From positions 14,570,001 to 14,634,000 of the forward strand of contig JBHGNT010000010.1 in the NCBI GenBank assembly GCA_043228905.1: a DNA stretch of 64,000 nt, read 5' to 3'. Below are positions 5,422 through 48,357 of this stretch, piece after piece. The DNA comes from Azolla caroliniana (lineage: Eukaryota > Plantae > Polypodiophyta). The notes beneath the pieces were generated by a model. That model had not been told where the DNA came from. It saw nothing but the letters and a program-made list of their open reading frames with translations, and ran no database searches. Position numbers and translations under genes: made by a program. Numbering within the stretch: position 1 is the stretch's first letter; every line of letters begins with the position of its first letter.

Positions 5422-5439
5422 TGGTGAACCCGACGTGAA
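5422..5439 (+). promoter_or_regulatory. Primer-binding site complementary to tRNA-Trp 3' end
   Basis: TGGTGAACCCGACGTGAA is the reverse complement of the plant tRNA-Trp 3' end (TTCACGTCGGGTTCA-CCA); identical at 23654-23671 and 36462-36479. Confidence 0.85.
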
Positions 5440-5460
5440 AGAGGCAACAGGAAGGATCAA

Positions 5461-6062: not shown

Positions 6063-6084
6063 ACAAGAAAGTAGAGCGTGTGGA

Positions 6085-7709: not shown

Positions 7710-7804
7710 TGTAAAAAGTAGCGTGCGGAAGCAAGTATGAAGACCGAAAAGAAGGAAGGAAACTCAGGTTTAATGGAGAGCTTGAGCTTACACGGTATAC
7801 GCGG

Positions 7805-7838
<34 letters not shown>

Positions 7839-8109
7839 ATAAGAAATATATTCAACAATAATACTCAGTCTGTACATAAGACGTGCTCAGTGAACACTTT
7901 TATACAAGTCCTAGAAGGATTGACCGAAGTACTGACAGTACTTCAATGCTCATCAAGAGCTCCTACACTAACTCCCAAATATATTCTTCACGGAATATCT
8001 TTCCTAACGACCTCCCGGTTTACGCACTCGGCCTAACCGATCGGTCCCAACCGATCTGGTCCTCGGCTTCTTCAGCCGATCCGGCCGATGTTGAGCTTGT
8101 CTCTCAACA
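7710..8109 (-). repeat. 3' LTR of copia (400 bp)
   Basis: Direct repeat of 11517-11898, adjacent to the PPT. Confidence 0.93.
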
Positions 8110-8260
8110 CTCCCCCTCAAGCTCAACTCGAGGCTCTTCGGGATCCTCGGGCTCACAGCTCCGGTTCCTCCTGGCTTCATGCCTCGCTCGCGCTCCTCAA
8201 CCTGTTCGACTCCGTGCGCTTTGACCCTTCCGGTCGGCTTGTCTGCTCAGACGGCCCTTA

Positions 8261-10071: not shown

Positions 10072-11444
10072 AACATTGCGGTGCCGCCGTCAGTGGAGTC
10101 GAGGATGAACATCCTCCCGTCTCTGCGCCCTTGCACAATCACACGGCCTTCTTCCTCAATGAAGCACCCGAGGTGTGTAAACCGAACCTCCATCCCTTGG
10201 TCGACGATCTGTCCGACCGAGACCAAGTTTTTCGTGATTGTCAGAACGTGTAGCACGTTCATGAGTTTCCCTTTCTGCCCGACATGGCTAAGGGGAACTT
10301 CTCCGACATTCGCGATCGGATGCGAAGTGTCATCTCCAGTTGCGACTACTCCAGGTTGTATCGGTTTTTCGAGGTACGAGAACCACTCCTTATGGCTCGT
10401 CATGTGCTTTGACGCGCCGGAGTCTACGTACCACACCTCGTTCGATCTCGGGGTGCTCTGTTTCATTGAGTTTGCTTCGTGTCTCGTCACGAAGGCTGAC
10501 CCTTCTCCAGCTCTCCCGGAGTCTTCGGCGTAGTGCGATCGCTGCCGATTTCCCTTGTCGGTATGTCTGGAGCCGTTCCCGGAACCAGTTCTCTCCGAAT
10601 CGGCGCGCTTCTTCCAGCACTCACTTTCCCTGTGGCCTTTCTTGCCACAGTACCAGCACTCCGTGATGGACTTCCCTTGCCGGTTCTCATCGCTTCGACT
10701 CCCCCTGTTTCCGAAGGGTTCGGAGTTGCTGTCGGCATCACTTCGGTGCCTTCTTCCCTGATCTCGTCGGCCGTCTCCATTGCGCGCCGACTCGCCTCGT
10801 CCTCCACGTCCACGGGGCCTATCTCCCTCCGTGTACAACATTCTGTTGTCGGCGTGCGTGCTTGTAGACGCACCCACGTGGTTCTCCTCTACCAGGAGCA
10901 TTGACTGTAAGTCAAAAAAGGACGGCGTATTCTCCCGGGTACACACAGCCGTTCGGAACGCTCCGAACTTCGACGCCAAACCTCCGAGACAGATCTGGAC
11001 CATCTCGCTCTCCTCGATGTTCACCTCTATGGAGGCGAGGGAGTCGCAGATATCCTTGATCTTCGAGGTATAGTCCGCCACCGACAAGTCGCGTTGTCGT
11101 AGGTTGCTCAACTCCTGTCGGAGCTGAAGCTTCCTGGCTGTGGTTCTCGCAGCGAAAATCTTCTTCAGATTTTCCCATGCACCCTTCGGCGTCTTTGCAT
11201 CCCGAACATAGCTCAATAGTTGTTCGCCCACACACGACGCGAAGCAGTATAATACCCTGCTCGCCGATTGCTCCCACGACGGGAAGTCTCTGTGTGTCGA
11301 TTCGGGTGTCGCGTCATTAGCTCCTTCGACATAACTCCAGTAGCCGTGCCCGAGCAGGTACTGGTGCATCTTGTAGGACCAAGACGCGTAGTTGGTTCTG
11401 TTGAGCTTCTCTGTTGGAAGCGAGCTCACCATGCCTCTATCCAT
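10072..11444 (-). CDS. gag: copia Gag-protease ORF (truncated before integrase)
   Basis: 466-aa ORF: NYASWSYKM, CWYCGKKGHRESEC zinc knuckle, WYVDSGAS protease. Confidence 0.88.
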
Positions 11445-11516
11445 CGTTCTTCTTGTTCTTATTCGTCAAGCTGTGTCGGCTGTAGAGAGGTTCTCAACCC
11501 TCGCGCTTTGATACCA

Positions 11517-11898
11517 TGTAAAAAGTAGCGTGCAGAAGCAAGTATGAAGACCGAACAAAAGGAAGGAAGCTCAGGTTTAATGGAGAGCTTGAGCTTACAC
11601 GGTATACGCGGGAGAGACACACACAGAGAGAGAGAGAGAGCACAAGAAATATATTCAACAATAATACTCAGTCTGTACATAAGACGTGCTCAGTGAACAC
11701 TTTTATACAAGTCCTAGAAGGACTAACCGAAGTACTGACAGTACTTCAATGCTCATCAAGAGCTCCTACACTAACTCCCAAATATATTCTTCACGGAATA
11801 TCTTTCCTAATGACCTCCCGGTTTACGCACTCGGCCTAACCGATCCGGTCCTCGGCTTCTTCAGCCGATCCGGCCGATGTTGAGCTTGTCTCTCAACA
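11517..11898 (-). repeat. 5' LTR of copia (382 bp)
   Basis: Directly abuts the Met PBS; repeat of 7710-8109. Confidence 0.93.
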
Positions 11899-13685: not shown

Positions 13686-13738
13686 TCATTACTGCCGAAA
13701 TCTCACTTTCTCTCTTCTTGGCACGTACCGGAGGACGT

Positions 13739-13855
13739 TGTCGCGTTATTACGCGCGTGCGTGTTGAAGGGGTGGGACCACGGGGGTTTCGAACGAGAGA
13801 GGAAGGGATGCCGAGAAGACGATTCCGGCCACGTCCCGGAAGCGACCGAACACGG

Positions 13856-13886
<31 letters not shown>

Positions 13887-14570
13887 CGCGCGCTACACCG
13901 ACTCTTATGCATAGGAAACAAAAGGGGTGGAATCACCCGACACTACCAGAGACGTGGATGTGCACAACCGAACATATATATATATATAAATATATTACAA
14001 TGGAAGAGTTACAACTCCGGCCCCAAACCGGACTGAGGTAAGCTAGGTCGCAATAGCTGCCTGTCGCTAAGCCGTCGTCGGGGAGCTCTTGGGCTTGTCG
14101 CACCGAGCGGGGTCTTGCACAGGAGGCCGAGCCGGCTACGCTCAGAAGAAGAGAAGCTAACCCTAGAAAGGAAAACACAAAACGGTATACCCTTACGAAT
14201 CAAAATGGGCAACCCCTTCACAAAGGGCGCTCCCTTCCTTTTATAGAACAAGGAGAGGGATGCGTTACAATGTGGGATAAATCTCGACTTACATGGGATT
14301 CTCTGTCCCGACTTGACCCCTATTTTTCACACATTTATACAAGGTGCACTCCGCCGATTCTTCTGACATTCTTCGATTCCGCCTAGGGACGGTTTTCTCC
14401 ACGACATCCGCCCACACCTAACCGCGAATCCACCGGTATGCGCCAAAATAGACCTTTTTCTCGGAGAAGACCGGCCCGCGCTTACCCTTCGTCCTCCGGA
14501 TCGCCATTCGCTTCAAACTGGTCGTCCCTGCGATCCAAGTCACCCGGGTCCGGTTCATCCTCATGCGCTT
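13739..14570 (-). mobile_element. Ty3/gypsy (Trp-PBS family) 3' remnant: 3' LTR 13739-14406, PPT, integrase tail
   Basis: LTR termini match the family (TGTCGTGGAGAAAACCG...ACGCGACA on minus); PPT 14407-14420; KRHEDEPD integrase tail to ~14570. Confidence 0.85.
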
Positions 14571-14574
14571 GCCT

Positions 14575-16706
14575 CTCCGTAGGCCCATTCGACCCGTCGA
14601 TAGGTCGTTCTCCGCGACCCCGTAGCATGGGTACTTCGTTGTCAGCCCTTTACATGACCGAAGGTAGGCTCCACTATCCGCCGTAAGCTTTTAGTCCCGG
14701 TGCAGGTGCTCAAAATCATCGGTCTTTTGCTTCAGCTTTTGGTTGAGTTGCCGGCAAGCGCGGTCTTCCCGGTCCTTCTGTTGACGGAGTTCTTCTTTCA
14801 GCCTTTCGATTTCTGTTTTCGCCATCCGTCGCAGCTTCTCCTTTTCTTGCAGTGCCTTCTCTTTCTCCTCCTTCAGTCGGTCATAGGCCTGATGTCCTTT
14901 CCGTAGATTCTCTTCTGCCCGGCATAGGTTCTTAGCAGTCTTTTGTTGCTCTTCTTCTGCCTATCTTCAAGTTCCGCTCTCGGGTGTGTAATGCTTCCTG
15001 TGCGGCCAGTTCATCTCTTAATTTAGCAAGCTCTTTTGCTTGCACCGCCACTATCTCCGGGGTCTTATTGCTATGCACAGGTGCCAATGCTTCTTTATTC
15101 TGCACATCTACCGGAGTCACCAGTGCTTGGAGTTCTGGTCCGGTTAAGGCCATTTTGGCCAATTCTTTTGTAGCCAAGTCCAAGTCTTATTCTAGGCTCT
15201 GGATCCTTGACTGGGCCGTCTTTAGTTCTCTAGTTGTGACGAGCAACCGGTCCATCTGCACTTTCTCTTCCGCCTCTATGTAATGTACCACTCCGGCAAT
15301 CTGTTCTCCAATCCACCAGAGCCATTGGTTGCTGGTGCCCTGTTGTTGCGTTTGTCGGGAGGGTTGGCTGTTGGTGTCGTTGGCCAGTGGTCGGTTTTGT
15401 CCTATTGCGTCGAGCTGCAACTCTGGCTCTTGTTGGTGACCACTTTGCCATTCTGGTTGTGGCTCCGTTGGCCGCTCCACCTCTGAATGCTCTTGGCCTG
15501 CTGGTGGGGTAGGCAACTGTACTTCCGGCGCTTGCATTTCAGGTCTTGCTGTATCCTGACCCGTCGATAGAGGTTGCTGTGCAGGGAGCTCTGTGACCGG
15601 TTCTGTCCGAACCGGTTCCGGTTCCATCCTTGGTGCGGGCTGCTCAGTGCAGGGTACAAGCATTCCATCCTTCTTTGGGTCCGAACGCTCCCCGACATGT
15701 TCAGAGGTGCTTGCCTTCTGGCGCCGCTGGAGGTGCTCTAACGGTTCCTCCTCCGCTTCCTCCTCCTGAGTCCCGATGTTGATTTTCGCTACCAAGGGGT
15801 CCGACGCTTGTTGAACCGGTCGACTAAGCCTGATCTTGATTGGCTGTACCGGTGGCTCCTCCTGGGTTTCTGCCTGCCGCTTCCTATTGGCGCGCTCCTT
15901 TGCCGCATGGTCCGTGTCGGCTACCTTCCCTTTGGTTGCCTTAGAAGACAACAGCTACTGTCGTTTCGAGGCCGTTTTCGGGGTGCCTTTGGTTGTCCTT
16001 CCCCGCTTCGTGGTCTTGACGGGCTCGATAGGTGGTGCCAATAGGGTGAGCCATTGCGCCACTGCCGTCCATATCTTCTGACCCTCTTTGCCTCTGACAG
16101 AGTCGATGGCCACACAAAGGCCATCCGCAATCAGTACCACCTAGTCCACCTTCACGCCTTCATATGTGGCTATGATTAAGTCAGCCCGGTTCTAGGGCAT
16201 GCACGGGGGTCGAGGGTATACATGCACAAATTCATGGAGCACATGGGCAATCTCTCGAAAGAGAGGGCCTTCGCCGCCCTGTGTCCGGTAGGCCTTGCTT
16301 GCCAGAGAGTATTCCCCAAAATATTTTCGGAGCTGTTCCGGGGTAGGGTTGTCGATATTGAAGATTCCCCCTCTGGAAGGCCAATCAACGCATGGATGGC
16401 CTCCTCAGAAATCAGCTCCGTGTCGATTTCTTTGACTATCTTCTCCGCCTCCCGGTGCAGTGGTGCCTCCATGATGGTGAGGAAACCCTCTAAGCCGTGT
16501 TGCCTTAGCCACTTCTTGGCTACTTCAGAGAGTGCTTGGCAGTCCATGGCTTCGTCGAGGTCGGTGAGCGCTGGTGAGGGTTGTGTGTAAGGAGTCTCTG
16601 TGTGCGTGGGCTCGCATCTACTGATCTTCAATCGCCTGTCTGCGTTTGTGCTCCTCTGTTCATGAAATGTGAGGGTTTCTATGTGGCGGGGGTCTTCTTG
16701 TTGCAT
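14575..16706 (-). pseudogene. Extra retrotransposon ORF downstream of integrase (unknown function; N-terminal globular, Q/P/E-rich middle, coiled-coil C-terminus)
   Basis: Successive minus-strand ORFs 16176..16706, 15955..16140, 15187..15951 and 14932..15183, mostly separated by single stops. Confidence 0.6.
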
Positions 16707-17049
16707 GTTGGCGCCAACTTTTTTCTTACCTGCGCATGTGCACGTCGTGTACTAAAATAGAATGTCTTGCCATGTGGCGGTGGTTTAATACCCTATTAAT
16801 AGCCCACTACGTACCTTTTCAAAGTGCCTGTTCACTCCTTGTTTTTGCATGTGTCTGTTCACCCCTCGCCCTTGCATGATTTACTTTGATTTGATTTGAT
16901 TTGATTTTTTTATTTTTTATTTTTGTTTAAATGGTTTTGGTAATTCGCAACCGGTCCCACTCGACCCCTATCCGGATTGTGGTGTTTGCCGGCCGTTGGA
17001 CCGCTTGCCGTCACTTCCGACTTACCGGTGTCCAGTTCTGTGTTGCCCT

Positions 17050-20000
17050 TCACTTGTTCAAATGGGTTTCTTGGCATGGGTCCATTGTATGGTTTGAGTT
17101 GGAACCTATTTACCCATTTACCCAGAACCTCGCCAGCGAGTTTCCCTAATTGATAGGAACCGTTGAACTCCCGCGTAATCTAGTATGGTCTGGTCCACCA
17201 AAACCGTAGTTTTCCCGGCATCTTACCCATCTGGGTCTGGAACACGAGTACCGGCTTACCAATTCCGAACATCTTTTCGTTCCCTTTTTGGTGACGATCC
17301 ACGAACGCTTTCCTTCGCCGTTGCTCTAGTTCTAGCTGCATGATGCTGGCTAGTTGGTGTTCTTCCAATTCGCACAACGTGTTTAACCGGATAGCTTCCG
17401 ATTCCTTCTCATTTAGGCGTTTCCGAATTTGTATTTGTAAACTTGGTACCTGGAACTCTACCAGTATCACTGCTTCCAATCTGAATGCTAGGCAGAACGG
17501 TGTTATGCGGATACTTGTCTTATATGCCGTTCGGTAGGCCCAGAGTGCACTGTGCATCTTTGTATCCCAATCCGTCCGGTTCTCATTGACAATTTTCCGT
17601 AGGATATTTTGTAGTGTTTTATTTTTTGACTCTGCTAATCCGTTGGCTTGCGAATAATAGGGAGTGCTCCGTTTGTGCACCACCGAATAAAATGTCGTCA
17701 AACTTTCCACTACTTGCCCTAAGAAGTTCCCATCTTGGTCACTTATGAGCTCTATCGGACATCCATATCGACACAATATGCATTCATATAAAAATTTTGC
17801 CGTGGAAGCCGCAGTGTTTTCGCGTAGTGCTTTCGCGTCCACCCATTTCGTGCAGTACCGGTTTACGTACCGGTTGCCAGTTCTCATTGCCGGTGGTTTG
17901 AACGGACTGACAAAATCTAGACCCCATTTCTGAAATGGTTCTAACGGTAGCATAGGTTGGTGAGGCATTCTGGCTTGTTCGGTTGGTTGGCCCATTCGTT
18001 GACATAGGTCGCATTCTTTAGCTTACCGGACTGCATGCTTCAATATTGTCGGCCACCATAGTCCACTCTGCCATATTTTCCTTGTCGTAGTGTCTCCGGC
18101 ATAATGTCCTCCAGCCACGCCGCAGTGTGCTTCACGCAATATTATTTCCTTTTCGTCGCTCCGCACTGCACGCCGCCATATGCCATCTGCGCCTTTGTGG
18201 TACAGGGTGTCCTGTAATAGACAGAAGTGCCGGCTTTGAACTGCTAAGCGTTTCCTCTCGTCTCTGTTCATCTCCTCCGGAGGTAAACCGGTGCTCAGAA
18301 ATTGGTGCATGTTGGTAAGCCACTTGTCTTCCTCTGGGACCGTACTATCCGTTGCCGTTTCTGCTGTGACTCTAAACAGCTCTACATCCGGAAAGTCGTC
18401 TGGGACTCCGTCACCGGTTTCGCCGGAATTAAATAGTCTGCTACTGCATGTTGTATGCCGGGTCAGTGGAATATCTCGAACTCGAATTCTTGCAGTAGTA
18501 ACGTCCACCGGGCCAGCTTACCGGTGACTGATGCTTTGGACACCAAATAGAGGAGCGCCGAATGATCTACGTGAAAGGAAAATTTCCTTCCCAACAGATA
18601 GTGTCTAAACTTGGTGACACTATAGATCATACCCAAAGCCTCCCTTTCTGTCATTGAATAATTACGTTCCGTTTGGGACAGCTTCCGGTTGGCATAATAG
18701 ACTGGTCGGTACCATTTCGGCTCTGTAAGTTGCATCAGCGCGCTTCTGATTGCAATGTCAAACGTGTCAACGAACACATGGAACTCTTTAGACCAATCCA
18801 GAGGTTGCACTACTGGCGCTTGTGACAACAGTACTTTTAGTGCCCGGTAAGCCTGGTCTTCTGTGTCCGTCCATGAAAACGGTGTCCAATGTACCGCGGC
18901 ATGCAGTGGTGTAGCCAGGTCTACCAGATACCGGAGCATTCTGCTATGCCACTGAATTTGTCCCAAGAACCGGCTTAGTGCCTTTGCCGTGGCTGGTGCC
19001 GGTGCCTCCAGGCTTGCTTTTACTTTGTCCGGATCCACTGCGATAATGAATTCTCTGAAAATCTCCATGCTGATCCGTTGGAAGGTTGTCGGCGCCGTTT
19101 TTAGTCCGAACATCATCACTAAGGCAACAAAAACTCCCCATTCAGTGACAAAAGCGGTTTTCTCCTGGTCAGCGGGGTGCATCCGGATCTAATTATAGCC
19201 GCTGAAACCATCCAGAAAACTTTAGACCTCATAACCAGCGACCGCATCCAGGACTCCATCCGTGAATGGAAGTGGGAAGGCATCTCTTACTGTAGCCGCA
19301 TTCAATTTCTGGTAGTTGACGCACACTCTGATCTTACCGTTCTTTTTGGGTACTACCACTATCGGGCTGAGCCATGTGGCTTTCTTTACTAGTCGGATGA
19401 AGCCCACTCTTAACAACTTGTCGATTTCTTCTTTGACTTTTGTTGCGTAATTCGGGTTCATCCGGTAACGTTGTCATGCTACCGGTTTGGTGTCTTTACT
19501 CAGATGTATCTAGTGTTGATACAACTGAGGATCGAGTCCCGGCATGTCCTCGTAGGACCAGACGAACACATCACGAAATTCTTTTAGGAGTGTGATCATT
19601 GCCATTTTGTTCTCCGAAGTTATTTCCTTGGCGATGTGCATCGGTCTTGTGTCCTCTGTGATACCTAGGTTTACCTCTTCTAGTTGGGATGCTTTCACGA
19701 GCTACGATACTGCCATTTCTTTTTCCAGTGCCTCCTGTGCTTGCCGTAATTCCCGGATTGCTTCTTTATCCGGTTCCTCGTCGGTCCCGTCCGGTTGCAG
19801 TACGTACGGTGATACTGCTTCGGCTACATCAATCTCGAATAGAGGTACGATCTTTGGATTTTCCTGTAAGTATTGATCGACCTCTTCGTCCGGCAATCCT
19901 TCCAGCATGTTGACACAGTCCGCATATAGCGGCGTTGATTCCTTGCCGGTACCGGATCGTGGTTGAGTCGGCACTCGTACTTTCGCTTTTCCACACCGGA

Positions 20001-22303
20001 ACGTAATTATATTCTTCCTCCAGTTTTGCTTTATGTGTGTTGTTTTTAACCAAGGGCGTCCCAACAATAGTGGGTACGCTCCCTGAGCCTGTAGTTGGAG
20101 AACTACTGCGGAAATGTGAAATGTGTGACCCCCGATGGTCACTTCTAGATCGCGTATTAATCCGGTCGGCCGTACTGAGCTAGTGTCCACCATCCGAAGC
20201 CAAAACGGGCACGGTTCCCAGTCCTGAATTCCTAGCATGTTACACGTTCGGAGGCTGATCACGTTCACGTCGGATCCTCCATTGATAATCGTGCCCGGTA
20301 GCTCCTTTCCTTTCACGATGGTTGTGATTGCTGGACTACTCGTGTCCACCACTGCCAGTCCTTCCTTCGGATTTGAAAAGAATGCCGAAGCTAGTGGTGT
20401 GTTAGCTGTCGTCCTTCTTGTCTCCAGTCCTATCGTGAAGCGTGGTACCAGTTGCAACAGCCGGCCTAACGGCAACGTGATTTGGCATTCTTGTAACGCC
20501 TGCCATGTTGGGTTTTCGGGTTGCCCCGGGCCGGTGAGCTCTTCGGCATTCTCCTTTTGTTGTTCGAGCTCTACCGCATTCCGCTCATTTGCCTTCTTCA
20601 CCCATTCGGTTGCCTGCTTCCGGATGGCTTCTTGAGTTTCCCACTCCGTGGCTTTGCCTTTTGATCTTGTAGTGACTTGTTTTATGTTCACGACTTCCGC
20701 ATCTACCATGCTCACCGTTGGTCGCTTGTCATAGCTCTTTGTTGGACATTGATTACTATAGTGGCTCTCTTGACGATAGTAATAGCAGTATGGCTTCTGA
20801 GTGTTGCTGGATTCGGCGTGTGTGCTTGGTGGCGGATTGGGGGTAAGTGCTTGCTTTTGGTCTGGTTGGCTGCTCGGAACGCCCTTTTCCAATTCTCGTG
20901 GATGACCCCCCTTTTGTTGAAATGACGTTTCTTATTGAAATTCTTTTTGTTGCGGTATCCTTGTCGGGGCTGGTCGTCATCCTTGCCATAGTGGTCCCGT
21001 CGGTGGTTGTAACCAGGGGAGTGATCCCGGTTATATCTTTCATACTGTCCATTATAGTCCCGGTATCTATCCTGTCTATCATACCAGTCATAAGCGTCTC
21101 TTCGATCGCTATACCGGACATCTTGTGCCGGCCGGTAGCGCTCCTCTCGCCGCTAGCGCTCTTCTTCTTCCTCCCGGTTGCTCCGTGGTTCAATTTGCCA
21201 AACCGGTGGTGCTTGTCCATTTAACAAGTTATACTCACACCGTTCCATTGTGTGACTTCTGGAGTGCCAAAGCAAGCATTGGGAACGCATGGTGTCCAGC
21301 GCCGAATGTCCGGCATTCAAGCATACCGTACATTGAACTGCTTGCCGAAAACGGAGGTCCTCTTCTGTCGGTAGTGTACGCTAAAGTGTGCCCATGGTTA
21401 GCCATGAACTCGAGTTTTCCATTTCCCAAACTCGGTCAATCACTTGATCTATGCTACGGGTGCGGAAATCGATGACGGTGCACACCGTCCGTAAGGGTTC
21501 CCGGAGTGCTGCTAAGAATATGGCCTTTGTTTCTTCATCCGGTGGTGTCCGACTGAGCTGACTGTGGATCCGCTGGAACCGGATGACAAACTGTTGGATG
21601 TTCTCCATTGGTTCCTGCCAGATACTGTAAAATAAGCCGACCATTTCCCGTTGGTCCATCTCCTTGTGGAAGAAATGCAGGAATTTTTTCTCTAATGTTT
21701 CAAACGTGGGGATGGTGCTGGGATCCTGTGTTCGGTGCCATATGGCGGCCGGTCCCTCCAAGGTCATGCCGAACTCTGCCTATTTTGAGCGTTCCTCTTC
21801 GGCTGCATTTAAGCGTTGGGACACATGGTTCGCCTCCCAGGTCTACTGAAACGTATGGACGTGGGCTTCCGCGTCCGGATCATCCCGGTATCTGGGATAT
21901 TGGAACGACATATCGTCGTCTGGTGTCGGTACACGGGCTGGTGGTGTCGGTGGTCGTTCCTCCTCTGGTGGTGTCAAAGGTTTTTCCAGGTCTTTTGTCG
22001 CCCTCGTCCTCTGGTCCGCATGGGGTGTCGTTACTACTGCAGTAGTTCGTCTACGCGCTGTATTCCCCGTCCGAACCCGATTCAAATGCCTAAAATGCTT
22101 CGGGTTCACCTTCCCCTGCTCCCAATGCCTGGAGAAGGGATTCCGCTTCCCAGAGGCTGCTTAGGCTGCTTCCTTCGTCCGGGTAAGCATTTTGTGGTAA
22201 CCGAAGTGACTCCTTGGCCACTCTCCAGATCACCTTGGAAAATGACTAATCCGCTCTGATTTCTTCTGCCGTTTGCTGGAAAGCCTCTCGCTTCCTCGGC
22301 CAT
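17050..22303 (-). pseudogene. pol: gypsy gag-pol, degenerate
   Basis: IINGGSDVN protease, WLSPIVVVPKKNG, EKTAFVT, RPVYYA, EREALG, HCGVAGGH, KWGLDFV, NGLAE motifs. Confidence 0.88.
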
Positions 22304-22478
22304 TCAGCAAGTCTCCTTGCTTGCTCCGTAACCGGGTCGTTCGTTGGTCGCGTCATCCATTCTCGCCGATGTTCGTTGCAATTGTGCAAGAATCGTGGTC
22401 GCCAAAAACTGTGTTACTCCTTAGGGCCGGAAAATGGCCTAACACAGGGTGTCTCCGGAACACACTTCACCAAAGGGG

Positions 22479-22856
22479 TGTTACGGCGAGATAACTTAAG
22501 ACACAATGATTAATTCGACTTAATTGGCTACTTAGCAATAAGGCATACACTTAATACACGTGTAGGATATAACAATTAATACAGAACGGTAATCAATACG
22601 TGAAGATAAAACAAGAAGCTTATATTAATTCTCCGTTAAAGTTATACATTGTAACCAAGCCTTTATATAGGTCACCGGTGCTGCTTACAAAAACGGTGTC
22701 AACCGGCACCTATTCGAAACCGGTCCGGATCCGGATCGGCATACCAATTTCGGTCTGTCCGTTCACTACATAATTATAATCTACGTAATTAAAATATATT
22801 CCGGATAACCATCCCTTTCACTTTCTGGTCTGTGCACCTTTGCCGGCAGGGTAACA
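22479..22856 (-). repeat. 5' LTR (378 bp) of the extra-ORF gypsy
   Basis: TGTTAC/GTAACA terminal inverted repeats, TATATAAA, TGG-starting PBS 6 nt downstream. Confidence 0.82.
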
Positions 22857-23000
22857 GAGAACGTGTATCCGGACGTGGATTGGAGATCGGCCGCGTCGCC
22901 AACCCAATCAACATCGGTGTAGCCGGCCAACTACAAGGCTGTACCTTTCCGATATAGCAGTCCCCGGTCCTTAGTGTTGCTTACATACTGCAGTACGCGT

Positions 23001-23649
23001 TGTTGTGAAGAAAACCGGCCATAGGCGGAATCAGAGAAGAAAGCGCATGAACCGGCTCTTACATGGATGGACGCACGACTTGATGTTTTGTACCCAAGTC
23101 ATAAAGGGATCGGTGGGTGAAAGATACTAGGAGGCACACGTTTATCAAGGGGATTGTGCGTATCCCTGTCAGGGGGGGCGACAGGGAATAAAAGGGAGAA
23201 CAGAGAGAGGAGAAAGATATCGCGTGTTGGGGAAAAGAAGGGGAGGCGTTGTTGCAAAATGGAGGCGGAGCTCTCTCTCTTCTACTCGAATCGTCGCTCT
23301 CTGCAGGTGTCGGGAGGTCGCTGCCTTTGCTTCGTGGACAGCCCGTGTGCTTCCAGCAGAGTCGCTCCCTTTCCCCCTTTTTTTTTTTTTTGTTTCTTGG
23401 AGTCGTGTGACTGTCGTCGATGCGCGTGAGTAGGGCCCCGTGTCGGGTCCGTCGCCGCCTGGTCGGTTGTAACCGTCGGGGGTTTGTAATCTCTTGTCAT
23501 TATAATTGAGTGTTATGATTCTATCTCTCTCTTTCTCGCTTCTACGTGTCGGTGAACCTCTCTCTCTATCTCTCTCTCTCTTTCTCTCCTCGGTCCAAGA
23601 CCCCCGTGGTCCCGCCCCTTTCTACACGCACGCGTGTAACAACGCGACA
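23001..23649 (+). repeat. 5' LTR (649 bp)
   Basis: Direct repeat of 37154-37814. Confidence 0.92.
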
Positions 23650-23693
23650 TCTTTGGTGAACCCGACGTGAAAGGGTGGCAAAGGAGTCCAAAG

Positions 23694-26600
23694 ATGAGGG
23701 GATCGGAGCTAGCAGAGGCAATGCCGGTGGCCGTCGACCGACTGGTGAGCGCTCGTGAGGAAACGGGTACCCTCGACAAGGCCATTGAATCGATCATCGG
23801 CTCTATAGGCCGTTTCGGAGGGAAAGACGCCACCAGTTATATGGAGGCTTACCGGGCCGAAATGATCATGAGGGATATCCCGGTGGACAGGCGGCTGTCC
23901 GGATTCCCTCGGGTGGTGTCATCGGGCATCCATGCAGAGGTGCTCGAGGTGCTGGCCGGATGCCAGACTTGGGAGGAGTTCGAGCTGCAGCTCCTCGAGA
24001 AGTACGGGTTTGACGACTCGCTCCGGCTGTCGAGGCGGAAATTCATGGGGTGGGTGGAAAGCTTCGGAAAAGGGAGGAACACGTCGGTGCTCCTCCAGGA
24101 GTTTGAAAAACGGTTCGCGCGGCTGTCGACGTTGGACCGGACGGTGCTCGAAACAAGTCGAGTACTACTGTTTGTCAAGTTGGTGGATGCGCTCGACAGG
24201 GAAAGACTGGGTCCCCTATTGGAAACGGACGAAGGGCTCACGACGGATTGGGCCGTGGTAAAGCGGGTCTGCAGCCGTTTCGACAAACGGCGCAATTGGA
24301 GCGACGGAAACACGTCGGGGTCGGGGCCGATCCCGGGGAGGAGGCTCGAGGAGCCGGTTTCGATGCCGTCTGGGAGGAAGAAAGAGACCCGAATCTGGCC
24401 GGAGTCGGGGTCGGCATCGAACGGCGTGGTCAGAGGCCCATCCGGAGGAACGACTCTGGAGGAGCTCAAACAGATGGTGCGCGACCTGCAGATCACATAG
24501 GCCCGGAGGGTTAGCGGTGAACAACCTCGCGACCGGAGGCCGCCGGCTGGGCAGCGGTGCATGTGGTGTGACGCGATCGGTCACATTCGGAAGGATTGCG
24601 TGGATTTCACCGATGCGCTCAGGGCCAACGTGGTGTACCTCTGGAACGGATGAGTGCAGGCAAGCAAGACGCGGAGAGCCCTAGAGCTGAACACGGGGCG
24701 CGGCAGAATGAAGAGGTTGATGGAAGAGGCCGCGGCACAGCATGTGGAAGCCGTCAACTACTCGGTGTCGGCGGGAATTCGGGTCGGGGGTGATGAGACC
24801 CAGAAGGCGAAGGACTCCGGATTCTGGCCACTAGTGCTAGAAGGCCTCTCCGGAGTTCGGCTGAGGAAGGAAGAGGCGGACCGCTGTCACATTATTACGC
24901 GCGTGCGTGGAGAAAAGCGGGACCACGGGGGTCTTGGACTAGAGAGTGATGGAGCGTAGGAAGTCGTGCTTCACTGTTTCTGGGGCATCCCAGAAACACA
25001 CCGGAAGCAACCGAAGGGAGAGAGAGAGAGAGCGTGCTTAACGCCGACTCGCACACACACACACACACAGCCAACCCGACTCACGGCTTATGTACAAAAA
25101 ACGTAGGGAAAGGGTAGGCACCCGACGCCAACAACGACGCGAATATACACGGACAAACGTATATATATATATATATATAAAGGGAAGAATACATTCCCGG
25201 TGTCGAGCCGTTCCAAGGTAGGTTACAGTAGTCGTCAGCTGCCAAGCCGCCGTCGGGGAGCTCACGGGCTCATCGCGCCGAGCGGGGTCTTGCGCAGGAG
25301 ATGAGCTGAAGCAAACCCTAAGCGAACACGAAGGAGAAGACGAAGAAGAAGAAGAAGAAGATACTAGCTCTAAACCTAACGGTATACCCTCTAATGCAAA
25401 ATGGGCAACCCTTTCACAAAGGGCGTTCCCTTCCTTTTATAGAACAAGGACAGGGATGCGTTACAATGTGGGATAAACCCCGACTTACATGGGATCGTCT
25501 GTCCCGACTTGACTACTCTTCGGCGCCATAAAGGCGTCCTCGATATTCACACTAAATGTACATGGGTGCGTACACATGCTGCACCCCGCCGATGTAGCCA
25601 GTGTTTCCCGGTTTCCGCCTCTGGCCGAAATTCTTCACGACACCGCGCGGAACAGCGGGTCCAGGAGGTCACCGGTTGGGACGATCCGGTCGAAGAGAAA
25701 ACGGGCTTCGTAGAAGCCACTTGCCAGAACTACGAGGTTCTGATGGAAGACAAACGGGCAGGAAAGGCCGGAGGGGTCGGCCCCCCGAGGTATGAGACCC
25801 GGTTCGGACTGAAACCGACCGGTGCGGGCAACCCGGGCACACCAGACGGAAAGAAGTAGGCGGGGTTTCGGTTGAGCACCGAGATCGTAAGGACCACAGA
25901 CCTGCGAAAGGTCCTGGAGGAACGTATCCTCGACAGCAAAGTGGAGTTGTCATTGCGGGTGCTAGGAATCGCCAAGAGGGAGTTCCACGACTCTATCATA
26001 GACTTGGTGAAGCGTAAGAGGCTCTCGACGGAGCCGGAACCGGAGAGGCCTGTGGAGGTGCGGACCACGCACCTGGAAGACGAAGCCCTGGAAGACGAGC
26101 TGGCAGGGAGCCACTACACGAAGCCGCATTGGGTCAGGGCGACTACGGAAACCCCTGTACGAATTGGCAACGTTCTGGAACCAGTGGTGGCATTGGTAAA
26201 CCATGGATCCGAAATCAACCTGATGTCCATGGATTTCTACAAGAAGGGTAAATGGCCGATCAACACCAAGCATGGCTGGAAGATACGAGCAGCGACGCGT
26301 GCCACAGAAGAACAACATGGGGCCTGTCCGAATGTATGGGTGAAAATCGGCGATGTCGAGATCGACTAGCACTTCTTCGTGCAGGAGACGTCCTCGCATC
26401 CGGTTATACTAGGAGAGCCATATATCACGGCGGCACGGATGGAGACCAAGGTGTTGGACAACGGTTCAGCCTATGCAAGCGTCAAGAGCCAGGACGGGCG
26501 TCACTCGGTCCAGTTCCTAACGGTGCGACCGAACCACGAGCATAACCACGAGGCCCTCGGGTTTCGCTGCCGAGGGTCTCACGGTTACGCTCGTGGTTTG

Positions 26601-29600
26601 GTTTTCAAGGCGTGGGGCCACGATAATCCAGACACCCGAGAAGAACCCCACAAATGTACAGTACGGAAGAAGACCTGTACCATAGGTAGGAAATTTTGGT
26701 TCTCTGACACCGGAGGTTGTACTATAACCAACGTCAGCGGCAGGGAGAGGAAGCGAGCGGAGGAGCGGCTCAGGGGATGCGGAGTCCTCTTCCCCGATGA
26801 GGACATCAGCGGCGCCGTGGAGGCGATCTCTTTTGACGACACCTTGGACGAACTACGAAAGGTGATTGGTGAAGACCTTAGGGAAGACCGGACCGTTCCG
26901 GTAGGGTCAATGGGAATGTACGAAGTCATCGCAGACTTCGGGGAAAGGATCGGGTCGAACCGGACGGCCCGCGTGGATACAAAATACAAGACTGTGGACC
27001 GGAAGGTGAGGCCACTCGCGGCACCCTTGCCGCAGGGCAGCGAGGAGCGGAAGTTTACGAAATCCGGCTAGCAAAGGGCACCGGTTCACCGACATAACTC
27101 TACGGGAGCTCAAGGTCGGTGGGGGCGGCTTTCTACTGCCGGCACAGGAGGACCGGTTCCGGAGAATGCTCGGGAGGCACGGGAAGTCTTTCGCATTCTC
27201 ACCGGAGGAGATCGGGTGCGTAGACGCGACAGTTGTCAAACCGATGGTGATCTTCACGGTACCGCATGTACCGTGGAATCTCAAGCCGATTCCGGTGCCA
27301 AGAGCTCACATCCCGAAGTTGATGGAGCTCCTAAAGCAAAAAGTGGAGATGGGCATCCTCGAACCATCGAGTGCCCTGTATTCGAATCGGTGGTTTACGG
27401 TGCCGAAAAAGAACGGCACGTTGCGCTTCATTCAGGACCTGCAACCGGTCAACAAGGTGACCATCCGTAACGCGGGAATCGGACCGACCATAGACGAGTT
27501 CGCGGAGGCTTTCGCCGGAACGTCGATTTACTCTGTCAGTGATCTGTACCCAGGGTATGATGAGTTCCAACTAGCCGTGGAAAGCCGAGACATTATGACG
27601 ATGCGGACTCCTCTCGGTCTAGTGCGGATGTCTACCCTGCCGCAAGGAGGGACGAACTCAGTGGCTCACATGGTGAACACGATGAACAAAGTGCTTAGGG
27701 ATTGTATCCCGGACATCACCATGCCATTTTTAGAAGACATCCCAATCAGGGGATGCCCGGTGGAGGAAAAGGACGAGGCAATCGGGCCAGACGGATGTCA
27801 AAATTTCATGGCGACTCACGTCGATGACTGCGAGAAGGTGCTACAGAGACTAGAAGGAGCGAGGCTCACCTTCTCCAGGGAAAAGTCGGCCTTCGGACCG
27901 TTAGAGATCTTGGTGGTCGGACACCTATGCGGGCCTTACGGTAGGAAACCGTCTCCGACAAAGGTAGAGGCCATCTCCGCGATGAGGAACAATTGCGGGT
28001 CGGTCACGGAGGTCCGCAGATTCTTGGGGGCATGCGTGTTCTACCACATCTGGATCCCGCACTACGCACATGTCGCGGAACCCCTCTACGGACTATTGAA
28101 AAAGGGGCGTAGCTTTGAGTGGACGACGGAGCACACAGAGTGGGTTCGGAGACTAAAGGAGGCGCTTATGGCAACACCAGCTCTCCGTAAAGCAGTTTAC
28201 GGCAAGGATGTTCCCATCTGCGTAACGGTGGACACCAGCCCGACCGGGATCGGGTGGGTAATCAACCAAGAGGGTAAGGGCAACGTAGGATTCCTGATCC
28301 GGTTCGGGGCGAAGGTATTGAGCGAGCGGCAGCGAGGATACCCCCAAGTTAAGCGCGAACTTTGGGGTGTCGTTTCAGTAGTCAAGGCCGACAGGGATTA
28401 TTTGATCGGGACGGAGGTGATTATCGAGACGGACTACCTGCCAATACTCAACATGGTTTCCAGATGCGCGACGCCGGACCTAGCAATGCTCCGGTGGATA
28501 GCGTACATTAGTTCCCTGAACCCGGAAAGGACAACGCCATGGCCGACATGCTTTCGAGGGCAAGGTTCAACGACGAACATGGCATGCTTTCGGATGACGA
28601 AGAAGTCGGCGAAGACTTCTTCGGGTCGGCTACCGTAACGATGAGAAAAGGGAACACTCCGGTGCTTAACGTGTTTGACGAAAGCAGGTACGACGGGGAG
28701 TGGCTCCAAATCGGGAGGTTCCTGTGGACGATGACGCCGGACGCAGCATGGGCGAGAGAGGAGGCGAGCTGGATACGGAGGAAGGCGTACCGATTCTTCC
28801 TGCAGGACGGGTGCATATGGAGGCACCCAAAGAAGAGAAGCGGCATTCCACTCCGAGTAGTGGGAAAGGAAGAAGAACAGGGGAAACTACTTGTAGCATT
28901 TCACAAGAGCCCCTGGGCCGGACACCGCAGAACGTGGGCCACTTTCGAGAAGCTGAAGGAGAAGTACTGGTGGCCGGGGCTATACCGGGACGTGCATCGG
29001 TACATAACGTCTTGCGAAAGCTGTCAGATGCACTCCGTAGTCCGACACCGGGACGAGCTACACCCAACCTACCCGCCTACTGTCCATTTCAAGTGGATGG
29101 TCGACTTGGTGACGATGCCGATGGGGGTAGGACGGATGTGATACCTGGTGCTTGCACGAGAGGACTTAACGAACCAGGTGGAAGGCCGTGCACTGCAAAG
29201 CAAGACAACCGCGGCGGTATGCCAGTTCCTGATCGAAGAAGTGGTGTGTCGATACGGGTGCGTCGGGAGGATCGTGGCGGACCAGGGAGAGCTGGATGCG
29301 TGGGAAGCTGAGGAGCTGTTCGACCGGCTAGTCGTCAAACTCTCCCTCACTACGGTGTACAATCCGAAGGCAAACGGAAAGGTAGAACGTGGGCACGGAC
29401 CTATCGTAAAAGCGTTGGTGCATGCATGCGGAGGGCAGATCGGGATTTGGCCGCGACTCCTTCCTTACACACTATGGGCGGACGGAACTACGCACAGTTC
29501 GGTGACAGGGTTTATGCCGGCGGAGCTGATGTACGGAAAAAAGCCAATAATGCCGGTGGAGCGGACGGTTTCTTCGTGGGCGGTGGTAGATTGGAAGGAT

Positions 29601-30038
29601 GAAATGAGACGGGAAGAGTTGCTGGCGGTGCGGATTCAACAACTCGAGCGGAGGCCGGAGGATGTGATACGGACGAAGGAAAGACTGCGAGTGCCGAGGG
29701 AGCGGAACAAGATCCGGTTCAACCGGACGCACCGATTGCGACCAAAGAAGATCGAGGAAGGCGATTGGGTCTTGGTATACGACAACAACCTCGACAATCA
29801 ACACAAGACGGTGCAGATGTTTGCCAGGAGGTGGTTCGGGCCCTACATGGTGACGAGCGCGAACGACAACGGCACATACCACCTCGCGGAACTCGACGGG
29901 ACACGGTTAGCGGTGCCGGTGGCCGGGAAGCGTATCAAAGCGTTCAAAAAGCGGTTCGAAGACGAGCCGAAGCCTGCGAGTGGGAGCGACAACGACGATC
30001 AGTTCGGGCCCGGCGGAGAATCGGAGAGTAACGAGTGA
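23694..30038 (+). pseudogene. pol: gypsy gag-PR-RT-RNaseH-integrase, degenerate, interrupted by a solo LTR
   Basis: ORFs 23667..24500, 25872..26369 (ALVNHGSEIN protease), 27166..28638 (RT), 28539..29141, 29148..30038 (integrase). Confidence 0.9.
24885..25642 (-). repeat. Solo LTR of the Trp-PBS gypsy family (758 bp), TSD CCGC
   Basis: TG...CA termini; CCGC at 24881-24884 and 25643-25646; host gag sequence rejoins; similar to LTR 13739-14406. Confidence 0.92.
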
Positions 30039-30092
30039 AGCCGGTCTTCTTCGGTATCTGCCCGTCTCTGGCGCATGCCGACGGATGCGCGG

Positions 30093-30743
30093 TGTCGTGT
30101 TACTACGCGCGTGCGTGGAGAAACGAGGCGGGACCACCGGGGTCTTGAACCGAAGAGCAGGTGATAGAAGGGGAAAGAGAAAGAGAGAGACGCCCGGTTA
30201 TGTATGAGCAAAGAAACACAAGGGCACGGCCCGTCAACGCAGAAGACGCGAATGGACACAAAGACAGAGAGACACAAATGTTTGTATATTAACGAATGAC
30301 AAATAAACAACAGAGCACGCGAGCGGTTACAACCGAACGGGCCGGCGAACAGATGCCGATGCTTGTTCGTCTGCGCACGAAAAGGGGATAGGATGGAGGT
30401 GCTGCCGGAAGCACACGGGCGTTCCTCGAAGCAGTGCGAGCCTCCCAAAAACCTGCAGAGAAGACCAATAGAGAACAACCAGAGGAGAAGCGTTCGGTTA
30501 CGGTCCGACAGCACTTCGTCCTCCTCAATGCGCGACCCCCTTCTCCCCGCGTCTCCCTCTCCTTTATAGCTTCAAGAAGGGAGCCATTTCCCTCATTAAC
30601 TTCCTACCTACCGAATCTAACTACCTAGGATATACCTTTGTACCTAATCCTCTATTATATACATTAAAGGGCGCGTACGCGTGAAGAGTCGGTTCGCGCG
30701 CGCTATGCACCGATTGTGCTAAGGGACGGTTTTCTTCACGACA
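30093..30743 (-). repeat. 3' LTR (651 bp)
   Basis: Direct repeat of 36484-37134. Confidence 0.93.
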
Positions 30744-30789
30744 TCCGCCCCCACCTAACCGCGCATCCACCGGTATGCGCCAAAATTGG

Positions 30790-33700
30790 GTTCTGGTTGG
30801 AGGAAACCGGTCCGGGTTCCGGTTCTTCGTCCATCGGTTCGTCCTCCGTTTCGGACTATTCGTCGTCGTTGTCCAAGCCTCTTACATCCGGTTCGCCGTC
30901 GTGGCGTTTCTTGAACGCCTTGATCCGCTTCCCTGCTACCGGTATCACCATCCTCGTACTGTCGAGTTCCGCCAGGTGATACGTCCCGTTGTCGTTGGCG
31001 CTCATTACCACGTAAGGCCCGAACCACCGCTTTGCAAACTTCCGTGTTGTCCAGTGCTGGTTGTCGAGGCTGCTGTCGTAGACTAGTACCCAGTCGCCTT
31101 CCTCGATTTTCTTTGGTCGGACCCGGTGCGTTCGGTCAAACCGGGCTTTGTTCCTCATCTTGGCCGTCCGAAGTCTCTCCGCTGCTTGTTCCACATCCCC
31201 TAGCCTCCGCTCGAGCTGTCGTATACGCGCCGCTAGCAATTCTTCCCAGCTCATCTCATCTCTCCAGTCCATTATCGCCCAAGAGGAGATCGTCCGTTCC
31301 ATCGGCATGATTGGCTTCTGTCCGAACATGAGCTCTGACGGCATGAACCCAGTTACCAAACTGTGCGTTGTCCGGTCCGCCCACAAGGCATAAAGGTAAC
31401 AGTCGTGGCCAGTTCCCGACCTGGCCTCTGCATGCCCGGACTAGTGCTTTGATGATCGGTCCGTGTCCGCACTCCACCTTCCCGTTCGCCTCCGGATTGT
31501 ACGCTGTGGTGAGCGAGAGCTTGACCCCTAAGCGGTCGAACAGCTCCTCGGCCTCTTCGGCGTCCAACTCCCCGCGGTCAGCCACGATCTTCCCGATGCA
31601 CCCGTATCGGCATATCACGTCCTCGATCAGGAACCGACACACGGCCGCAGTCGTTTTGTTCTGCAGGGCTCGGCCTTCCACCTGGTTCGTCAGGTCCTCC
31701 CGGGCCAGCACCAGATATCGCATCTGCCCTACGCCCATCGGCATCGTCACCAAATCTACCATCCATTTGAAGTGGATGGGCGGAGGGTATGTAGGGTGAA
31801 GCTCGTCCCGATGTCAGACTATGGAGTGTATCTGACAGCTCTCACAAGTTGTCACAAACCGATGCACGTCCCGGTACAGTCCCGGCCACCAGTACTTCCC
31901 CTTTAGTTTCTCGAACGTGGCCCACGTCCCACGGTGTCCAGTCCAGGGGCTGTCGTGGTAGGCCTTCAGCACCTCCTCTTGTTCCTCCTCCATCACCACT
32001 ACTCGGAGCGGGATGTCGTTTCTCTTCTTCGGGTGCTTCCACAAGTATCCATCCCGGAGAAAGAATCGGTATGCTTTCTTCCGGATCCGGTTGGCCTCGT
32101 TCTTTGTCCATGACCCGTCCGGCGTCATCGTCCTTAAGAATCCCCCAATCTGCAGCCACTCCCCATCGTACTTTCTCTCGTTAAAATCGTTAAGCGCTAG
32201 AGTGCTCCCTCCCTCGGTAGTCACGTAGGCCGCCTCGAAGAAGTCTACGCCGACTTCCTCGTCTTCCGAAACCATGCCGCCCTCGTCGTCGAATCGTGCC
32301 CTCAAAAGCATGTCGGCCATGGCATTGTCTTTCCCGGAAATGTGTCGTATTTCCGGATCAAGGGACTTGATGTACGCTATCCACCTGAGCATTGCCAGGT
32401 CCGGGGTTGCGCATCCGGAAACCATGCCGAGAATCGGCAGGCAGTCCGTCTCGATAATCACCTCTTTCCCGATCAGATAGTCTTTATCGGCCTTCACCGC
32501 CGAAACGATACCCCAGAGTTCGCGTTTAACTTGGGCGTATCCTCGCTATCGCTCGCTGAGGACCTTTGCGCCGAACCGGATCGGGAACCGAATGCCATCC
32601 CCATCTTCTTGGTTGACAACCCATCCGATCCCAGTCGGACTCGTATCTACCGTTATGTAGATGGGAGTGCCTTTCTCGTAGACAGCCTTCCGGAGTGCCG
32701 GAGCTGCAGCAAGAGCCTCCTTCATTTTTCGGACCGACTCCGCATGCTCGTCTCGCCACTCAAATTTTTGCCCCTTTTTTAGCAACACGTATAGCGGCTC
32801 GGCAATGTGGGCATAATGCGGGATCCATATGTGGTAGAACACGCATGCTCCCAAGAACCTCCGTACCTCCGTGACCGAGTTACAGTCGGGCTTCATTCCG
32901 AAGATGGCTTCGACCTTAGCCGGAGACAGTTTCCGGCCATACGGTCCACATAGATGTCCGACGACCATGATCTCTGATTGCCCGAAGGCCGATTTCTCCC
33001 TGGAAAAGGTGAGCCTCGCATCCTCTAGCCTCTGCAGCACCCTCTCGCAGTCGTCAATGTGTGTCGCCATGAATCTCCGGCATCCGTCCGGTCCGATCGT
33101 TTCGTCCTTTTCCTCCACCAGACATCCCTTGATCGAGATGTCGTCCAAGAATGGCATGGTGATGTCCGGGATACAATCCCTCAGCACGTTGTTCATCGCA
33201 TTCACCATGTGGGCCACCGAGTTCGTCCCTCCTTGTGGTAGGGTACACATCCGCACTAGGCCGAGAGGAGTCCGCATCGTCGTATTGTCTCTGCTCTCTA
33301 CGGCTAGTTGGAACTGATCGTACCCCGAGTACAGATCACCGACCGAGTAGATCGACCTTCCGGCAAAGGCCTCCGCGAACTCGTCTATCGTTGGTCCGAT
33401 TCCTGCATTCCGAATGGTCACTTTGTTGACCGGTTGCAGGTCTTGAATGAAGCGCAACGTCCCGTTCTTCTTCGGTACGGTAAACCACCGGAACGAGTAC
33501 GGGGCACTCGACGGTTCGATGATGCCCATATCAATTTTCTGCCTCAACAGCTCCATCAGCTCCGGGATGTGAGCTCTCGGTACCGGAATTGGTTTGAGAT
33601 TCCACAGCACATGCGGTACCGTGAATAACCATCGGCTTCACAACTGTCGGGTCTACGCACCCGATCTCTCCCGGTGAGAATGCGAAGGCTTTCCCGTGCC

Positions 33701-34322
33701 TTCCGAGCATTCTCCGAAACCGGTCTTCTTCCACCGGTAGTAGGAACCCGCCCCCACCGATTTTGAGCTCCCGTAGCGTTCTGTCGGTGAAGGCGTGTCC
33801 TATGCAGGCCGGATCTCGTAAACTGGGGTTCGACGCGACCCCCTTGATTCGCAACGCGCTGCCCTCCGGTAAGGGTGCCGCTACTAGCCTTACCTTTCGG
33901 TCCACAGTCTTGTACTTCGTGTTAACCCGGGCCGTCCGATCCGACTCGAGCCCTCGACTGAAGTCCGCGATGACTTCGTACATTTCTTCTGAACAAACCG
34001 GTATCGTCTAGTCCCCTTTAAGGCCCTCTCCGACCACCTCTCGCAGTATTCCCAAGGTATCGTCGAAGGAGACCGCCTCCACGGCTCCGTTGATTTCCTC
34101 ACTGGGCCCGAGAACTCCGCATGCCCGAAGTCGCTCTTCCTCCCTTGTCTTTTCTCGGCGAACGACGCCGACTATCGTACACCCTCCGTTGTCGGAGAAA
34201 CAAAACTTCCTACTTATGGTACAAGGTTTCTTCGGTTTCGCCTCTATCGTACATTTGTGGGGTTTTCCCGGAGTGTGCGGACTGTCGCGGCCCCACGCCT
34301 TGATAGCCCTCTCTAAAAATCC
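30790..34322 (-). pseudogene. pol: gypsy ORF2: linker, RT, RNase H, integrase (-1 frame relative to Gag-PR)
   Basis: ORFs 33531..33983, 32546..33610, 31814..32497, 31256..31762, 30856..31386. Confidence 0.9.
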
Positions 34323-36439: not shown

Positions 36440-36483
36440 CTTCTACTCCTCTGCCTCCTTGTTCACGTCGGGTTCACCAAATA

Positions 36484-37134: not shown

Positions 37135-37153
37135 ACGGTTTGGTGGGGGTGGA

Positions 37154-48321: not shown

Positions 48322-48357
<36 letters not shown>

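What the first reader, a model, noticed from the sequence alone, without database searches (positions are those of the whole stretch)
13721..30092. Two independent antisense insertions hit the same pre-PPT site of sibling elements
Seen: the minus-strand element at 13739 sits after position 18 of the host's 20-nt pre-PPT hairpin, and the minus-strand element at 30093 sits after position 22 of the homologous motif in another host, so the target sites are 4 bp apart. The solo LTR at 24885 is also antisense within a sibling, and all mapped targets are CpG-rich. Inference: sequence- or structure-guided self-targeting that separates a relative's coding region from its PPT and 3' LTR.
Basis: partly seen in the sequence, partly recalled or inferred. 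Interest (0 to 1): 0.7.

Follow-up and report, generated by a model that had tools for sequence, protein, structure and literature searches.

The report
Phygy-like retrotransposons nesting beside siblings' PPT
Two jumping genes of a plant family that inserts at CG-centred four-base sites landed four bases apart, just before the second-strand primer site of two relatives; the same two spots recur in related DNA, so this is likely a modest local hot spot, but it is not tied to antisense orientation and is unlikely to be deliberate sabotage.

Summary
Minus-strand LTR ends at 13739 and 30093 follow positions 18 and 22 of a conserved 20-nt hairpin just before the PPT of two sibling Ty3/gypsy elements. 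Only the 30093 insertion has both TSDs (GCGG/ACGG); the 13739 element and its host are cut by a deletion.

The CG-richness is known. The family fits Phygy (4-bp NCGN TSD; Neumann 2019). In 89 independent junctions from metagenome contigs, 79 were NCGN and 10 were deaminated NCGN.

Antisense bias is not supported: 14 self-insertions split 9 sense to 5 antisense and spread along the element.

A local hot spot is plausible. L020 has a sense insertion at the same base as 13739, and L045 has an LTR-like end at the same GCGG as 30093. That is 2 events against about 0.13 expected from NCGN weights (P about 0.008; 0.002 to 0.10 over the assumptions). Still, only 1 of 99 junctions is at this site, a regional 3'UTR preference is published, and laying contigs of whole-genome runs was inconclusive.

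Verdict: known NCGN integrase preference plus a likely orientation-independent hot spot. No earlier scan note on this was found.

The parts
5420..7709 (+). Host 1, PBS and gag-pol 5' part (Phygy-like)
   Evidence: RVT_1
7710..11898 (-). Ty1/copia element nested in host 1, TSD AAGAA/AAGAA
11899..13720 (+). Host 1, RNase H-integrase part and 3' UTR
13721..13738 (+). Host 1 pre-PPT hairpin, positions 1-18; last four bases ACGT are the inferred left TSD
13739..14406 (-). Element A 3' LTR, antisense in host 1
14407..14570 (-). Element A PPT, intact hairpin (14424-14443) and integrase tail; family homology ends near 14570 (inferred deletion junction)
14571..22856 (-). Unrelated gypsy element X (5' LTR 22479-22856, no second LTR found) joined to A
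23001..23649 (+). Host 2 5' LTR; host 2 sits in a copia element, TSD GCGT/TCGT
24885..25642 (-). Family solo LTR, antisense in host 2 gag region, TSD CCGC/CCGC
30071..30092 (+). Host 2 pre-PPT hairpin (1-20) plus GG; GCGG at 30089-30092 is the left TSD
30093..37134 (-). Element E, full length, LTRs 30093-30743 and 36484-37134 (96.5% identical), own intact hairpin 30761-30780
37135..37153 (+). Right TSD ACGG and host 2 PPT, displaced 7 kb from host 2's coding region
37154..37814 (+). Host 2 3' LTR (95.4% identical to its 5' LTR over aligned columns)

Best explanation
These are nested insertions of a Phygy-like Ty3/gypsy family that makes 4-bp CG-centred TSDs, and the 3' arm of the conserved pre-PPT hairpin is likely a modest insertion hot spot that is used in either orientation. 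Shown: the junctions, the NCGN rule (ACGT commonest), self-insertions along the whole element in both orientations, and the conserved hairpin. Inferred: integrase needs a central CpG. The hairpin arm supplies one (ACGT at 15-18 in the host-1 subfamily, GCGG at 19-22 in nearly all copies). An extra local factor, most likely accessible or distorted DNA at the G-rich PPT/U3 border, would raise its use about 15-fold (95% interval roughly 2-60). The hairpin was probably kept for a role in the RNA or in reverse transcription, and becomes a target as a side effect. Cutting a relative off from its PPT is a consequence, not a purpose.
For: TSD rule: 79 of 89 independent 3' junctions are NCGN, 10 of 89 are deaminated NCGN, and ACGT is 31 of 89. 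This matches Phygy, 4 bp, 100% NCGN. Recurrence outside the window: L020 has an E-type 5' LTR right after GGACGT of a host-1-type hairpin whose upstream 50 nt are 94% identical to window 13694-13743, in sense orientation. L045 has an end reading CACGACA followed by GCGG, PPT and 3' LTR; that 7-mer class occurs at 0.00018 per base in flank DNA. Expected number of events is 0.06-0.15 for realistic host mixes, P(2 or more)=0.002-0.01. All four events sit at hairpin positions 15-22; none is on the 5' arm or the loop CCGG, which argues for PPT/U3 proximity over a symmetric cruciform. The hairpin is 96.7% paired in 15 distinct copies, with double changes at 2 of 6 pairs.
Against: Only two independent events exist, both from one assembly, and only 1 of 99 junctions (0 of 89 3'-end junctions) is at this site. 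If all hosts were host-1 type, P rises to 0.07-0.10. Without L045, P(1 or more) is 0.05-0.31. L045's inserted end is 94 nt long and matched no known family LTR beyond its terminus. A regional effect may explain part of it: 3 of 14 self-insertions lie within 260 nt upstream of the 3' LTR against a 5.5% weight share (P=0.04), and 3'UTR preference is published. The hairpin is no more stable than shuffles as DNA (z -0.2 to -1.0). One covarying pair could arise from CpG decay on both arms.
Confidence: 0.5

Rival explanations
1. There is no base-specific hot spot. The NCGN/ACGT preference, the CG-richness of the elements and a broad 3'UTR nesting preference, plus picking this window out of many, produce the coincidence.
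For: ACGT is the best tetramer, and ACGT plus GCGG carry 2.6% of a host-1-type element's weight. Family DNA has 2.3 times the target weight of flank DNA. The other 13 of 14 self-insertions are spread over gag, RT, integrase and LTR. 3'UTR nesting is published (PMC6911290). P for any close pair is 0.016 in a genome with 264 noted windows.
Against: The zone was fixed from the window before the metagenome set was seen, and both window sites recurred to the base, P about 0.002-0.01 under NCGN weights alone.
Confidence: 0.35
2. One or more junctions are not fresh integrations but deletions, recombination products or misassemblies that end at an LTR terminus.
For: A has no second TSD and adjoins a deletion. 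L020 and L045 are one-sided junctions in low-coverage contigs. L020 could be a tandem PPT-LTR-PBS unit (like L046 and L058) that lost 19 nt. Rearranged junctions occur in the set (L062, L063, L079).
Against: All four junctions have an intact TG or CA terminus next to an NCGN. L020 reads ACGT then TG, which is not the product of a TG-microhomology deletion. Its LTR start is E-type, unlike that of the intact host-1-type copy L024. E has both TSDs.
Confidence: 0.11
3. One reading: the family has evolved self-targeting that inserts antisense before a sibling's PPT to disable competitors.
For: All three self-insertions in the window are antisense, and two are at the pre-PPT site.
Against: Three of three has P=0.25. 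The independent set is 9 sense to 5 antisense, and L020 is sense at the same base. 85 of 99 junctions are outside family DNA, and 13 of 15 host pre-PPT regions seen are intact.
Confidence: 0.04

Closest known systems
Phygy (non-chromovirus Ty3/gypsy of Physcomitrella patens; Neumann et al. 2019, PMC6317226; passages and supplementary file 5 read)
   Same: 4-bp TSD with NCGN, PBS of tRNA-Trp type (tRNA identity recalled), short element nearly filled by gag-pol, no chromodomain hit.
   Different: E (7042 bp) is shorter than the reported 7656-9968 bp. The paper gives NCGN only; here the preference is finer (A/C-CG-T/G). The passages read mention no pre-PPT hairpin or hot spot.
Nested LTR retrotransposons preferring the 3'UTR and their own family (Jedlicka et al. 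2019, PMC6911290; passages and section 7 read)
   Same: Self-insertion into the region between integrase and the 3' LTR.
   Different: That work reports region-level preference. Similar nested pairs there differed by at least 50 bp, and Phygy showed no palindrome excess (5.3 vs 5.3). Here the recurrence is at two fixed tetramers.
Drosophila errantiviruses gypsy, ZAM and Idefix (PMC5408687; passages read)
   Same: Integrase with a short palindromic target preference, CGCG for the ZAM subgroup.
   Different: A different lineage and a stricter motif; the passages read do not describe targeting next to a sibling's PPT.
Hairpin-targeted RAG transposition (PMC1618415; passages read)
   Same: A DDE enzyme of the integrase superfamily can prefer structured DNA targets.
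   Different: In vitro, at the tips of long stable hairpins. Here the sites are on the 3' arm of a weak 6-bp stem.

Membership tests
Phygy | Clusters with Phygy in RT/RH/INT phylogeny (REXdb) | not testable with these tools
   The reference FASTA is too large to read. Named homologues are Riccia sorocarpa polyproteins, 51-67% identical, several with DUF4100.
Phygy | 4-bp TSD with NCGN | tested here: met
   Three two-sided TSDs in the window (one exact, two with one mismatch); 79 of 89 junctions NCGN plus 10 deaminated.
Phygy | PBS mostly tRNA-Trp | tested here: inconclusive
   The same PBS is in hosts 1 and 2, in E and, with small variants, in 22 of the 23 PBS-type loci. Its match to tRNA-Trp is recalled, not checked against a tRNA library.
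Phygy | Non-chromovirus: no chromodomain, no extra ORF, gag-pol fills the interior | tested here: met
   Pfam scan of the E and host 2 ORFs that were submitted gave RT, RH, integrase zinc domain and DUF4100, and no chromodomain. The ORFs are degraded, so this is a weak negative.
Phygy | Length 7656-9968 bp (descriptive; the paper calls size of little value for classification) | tested here: inconclusive
   E is 7042 bp.
Site-specific self-targeting element | Most insertions fall at one defined site | tested here: not met
   1 of 99 junctions at the pre-PPT site; 14 of 99 in family DNA.
Site-specific self-targeting element | Fixed orientation at the target | tested here: not met
   9 sense to 5 antisense; both orientations at the same base.

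The most novel reading that the evidence does not exclude
The conserved hairpin before the PPT is a true structure- or protein-guided landing site for the family's own integrase. Several per cent of family copies are then interrupted within the same eight bases in different genomes: a base-precise self-nesting hot spot in a plant LTR retrotransposon that limits the family's own spread.
Probability: 0.3. Interest if true: 0.6.

Novelty: new member of a known kind. Interest (0 to 1): 0.36.

Why it matters
Plant LTR retrotransposons are thought to choose sites with little sequence specificity, Phygy being the stated exception (PMC6317226). A base-precise hot spot inside the family's own replication signal would give a small, testable target for asking what guides this integrase beyond a CpG, and a route by which a large family inactivates its own copies. 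If the excess vanishes in a genome-wide count, what remains is a refined Phygy target logo and a conserved pre-PPT hairpin.

Tried and rejected
No whole genome is held for the window, so the genome-wide map could not be made.

Contigs of whole-genome runs were laid twice, and both attempts were inconclusive. In one search (29950-36480) the tables were cut (8795 loose-end rows and 534 joints hidden) and showed nothing at the site. In one search (30726-30783; 2618 contigs from 4 runs) there were no joints, the share running on unlike was 0-0.01, and none of the 24 loose-end rows shown (62 hidden) lay at 30759-30766. The window's own junction was not visible either, so sensitivity is unknown and no bound is drawn.

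Pattern scans of viral contigs found nothing. Scans of prokaryote genomes found nothing and one chance match (L121). The full contigs behind L081-L119 were not available.

My early idea of an extended CGCGCG target (ZAM-like) was rejected: the commonest TSD is ACGT and positions 5-10 show no strong consensus. A stable cruciform was not supported. Copying of one nested doublet was rejected because the hosts, inserts and orientations differ among the four events. RLG1 is not a comparator: it carries a chromodomain (PMC7466625, passages). The earlier scan notes on PPT-less, tRNA-Arg elements concern another question; two searches returned nothing.

Full report
Setting. The window is a plant nested-retrotransposon cluster next to a PPR gene (55982-58189). 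The family in question has RT, RNase H, an integrase zinc domain and DUF4100. Its named relatives are Riccia sorocarpa polyproteins at 51-67% identity, and closer unnamed ones reach about 80% or more. A bryophyte host is therefore likely (inference).

Observation. Host 1 (plus strand) ends at 13738 after position 18 of the motif starting at 13721. A family LTR (element A, 13739-14406, minus) follows. Host 2 (plus; LTRs 23001-23649 and 37154-37814) is interrupted after position 22 of the motif starting at 30071 by element E (30093-37134, minus; LTRs 96.5% identical). The TSD is GCGG/ACGG, and host 2's PPT resumes at 37139. The solo LTR 24885-25642 is antisense with TSD CCGC/CCGC. Host 2 itself sits in a copia element with GCGT/TCGT. 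With 4-bp TSDs the two targets are adjacent tetramers, 15-18 (ACGT) and 19-22 (GCGG). Element A keeps family homology only to about 14570, where it joins an unrelated gypsy element whose second LTR was not found. One deletion would explain the loss of A's 5' part and of host 1's PPT and 3' LTR (inference), so A's second TSD cannot be checked.

CG preference is known. Neumann et al. 2019 (PMC6317226; passages; supplementary file 5) report Phygy with 4-bp NCGN TSDs in 100% of 186 elements and a tRNA-Trp PBS in 81%. I scanned metagenome contigs for the family's LTR 3' end (120 loci; the scan stopped after 51 of 64 parts). 118 of the loci come from 13 closely numbered assemblies, so they are not many independent genomes; the best LTR identity to the window is 91%. 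Of the 120, 23 were followed by a PBS and 97 by target DNA. I dropped 6 duplicates and 2 non-family matches (L014, L120), leaving 89. Of these, 79 are NCGN and 10 are NTGN or NCAN, and ACGT is 31. Position 1 is mostly A or C, position 4 mostly T or G, and positions 5-10 show no strong consensus.

Self-insertion and orientation. Fourteen LTR starts were not scored as PPT-preceded. I kept 10 as independent target junctions and dropped L065 (same site as its 3' junction), L062 and L079 (not NCGN) and L069 (truncated PPT). That gives 99 junctions. By hand classification of the BLAST hits, 14 land in family DNA: gag (L010, L041, L045), RT region (L022, L054), RH/integrase (L017, L064), 3' internal (L024 at -257, L040 at -176), pre-PPT (L020), LTR (L009, L025, L063) and beside another LTR start (L043). 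Nine are sense and five antisense (P=0.42). The window's 3 of 3 antisense has P=0.25. Antisense bias and exclusive self-targeting are not supported.

Recurrence at the site. None of the 89 3' junctions is in the pre-PPT motif, but two other junctions are. L020 has a host-1-type hairpin (94% identical to window 13694-13743) cut after the same ACGT and followed by a 5' LTR, PBS and gag in sense orientation. L045 has 94 nt ending in CACGACA, then GCGG, PPT and a 3' LTR, the same tetramer as E's TSD; its orientation is unknown and the upstream DNA matched no known LTR. One search lists 16 PPT-LTR junctions in the loci. L017 had too little upstream DNA; of the other 15, 13 are intact, L045 is interrupted and L063 is rearranged.

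Null model. Tetramer weights came from the 89 TSDs over flank background. Positions 15-22 hold 0.39% of E's weight, and up to 2.6% for a host-1-type element. The expected number of events in the metagenome set is 0.06-0.08 (E-type), 0.12-0.15 (observed host mix) or 0.43-0.54 (all host-1 type). P(2 or more) is 0.002-0.003, 0.006-0.010 and 0.07-0.10 respectively; without L045, P(1 or more) is 0.05-0.31. The ratio of insertions to full elements (1-3) is assumed. The model ignores regional preference: 3 of 14 self-insertions are within 260 nt upstream of the 3' LTR against 5.5% expected (P=0.04). Jedlicka et al. 2019 (PMC6911290; passages and section 7) report 3'UTR preference for nested elements. 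The evidence for a base-level hot spot is therefore suggestive, not firm.

The hairpin. In 15 distinct copies the 6-bp stem is 96.7% paired, with double changes at pairs 3-18 (6 copies) and 5-16 (1 copy). One of 500 shuffles reached the paired percentage and the covariation score, and the slid controls are lower. The tool warns that relatedness inflates this, and the 3-18 change could follow from CpG decay on both arms. As DNA the stem is not more stable than shuffles (z -0.18 to -0.96). All four events lie on or just after the 3' arm. In window host 1 the same ACGT is also present on the 5' arm and was not the one used. With n=4, this leans to an effect of the PPT/U3 border over a symmetric cruciform (inference).

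Literature. Searches for a described hot spot just upstream of the PPT in Phygy or other LTR elements (listings and abstract starts) found none. Comparators read as passages were errantivirus palindromic targets (PMC5408687), RAG hairpin targeting (PMC1618415), tandem LTR structures (PMC11899658) and moss TE families (PMC7466625). Subscription papers are not searched, and Neumann's additional files 1 and 3 could not be read.

Verdict. The feature is real and exactly described. The elements are Phygy-like nested insertions with the known NCGN rule. An orientation-independent local hot spot is about as likely as not (0.5); chance plus regional preference 0.35; rearrangement 0.11; antisense sabotage 0.04. 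Interest 0.36.

Noticed in passing
window 13721-13738, 14424-14443, 30071-30090, 30761-30780, 4188-4207; 12 loci: A conserved 6-bp-stem, 8-nt-loop hairpin 17-18 nt before the 3' LTR in all subfamilies seen, with compensatory-looking changes; possibly a cis-element for plus-strand priming or RNA handling.
   Followed up: partly
L001-L119 junctions: The target preference is finer than the published NCGN: palindromic A/C-CG-T/G, with ACGT in 31 of 89 and T at position 1 almost absent.
   Followed up: yes
L046, L058: LTRs preceded by a PPT and followed by a PBS: tandem elements sharing one LTR.
   Followed up: no
L043: An LTR end followed by ACGT and then another LTR start: likely an insertion into the TSD left by an earlier insertion, since the TSD is itself the best target.
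   Followed up: no
L011, L015, L039: Solo-like LTRs with non-matching NCGN flanks (ACGT versus ACGG), suggesting recombination between different copies or misassembly.
   Followed up: no
window 14571-22856: A gypsy element of another lineage with a long extra ORF region (about 14600-16600) after integrase, a 378-bp 5' LTR and no second LTR, fused to the 3' end of element A.
   Followed up: partly
window 48187-53943: A very young gypsy element (LTRs 99.6% identical, open 398-aa gag and 1203-aa pol frames) inside a copia element.
   Followed up: no
window about 4800-5420: Host 1's 5' end does not resemble the family LTRs; a purine run and a TGTCA start near 4811 suggest that another element's LTR lies before its PBS.
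   Followed up: no
window 3202-4537: A family fragment 92% identical to E, cut at both ends, with an intact pre-PPT hairpin.
   Followed up: partly
window 55982-58189: A 735-aa pentatricopeptide-repeat ORF beside the retrotransposon cluster.
   Followed up: no
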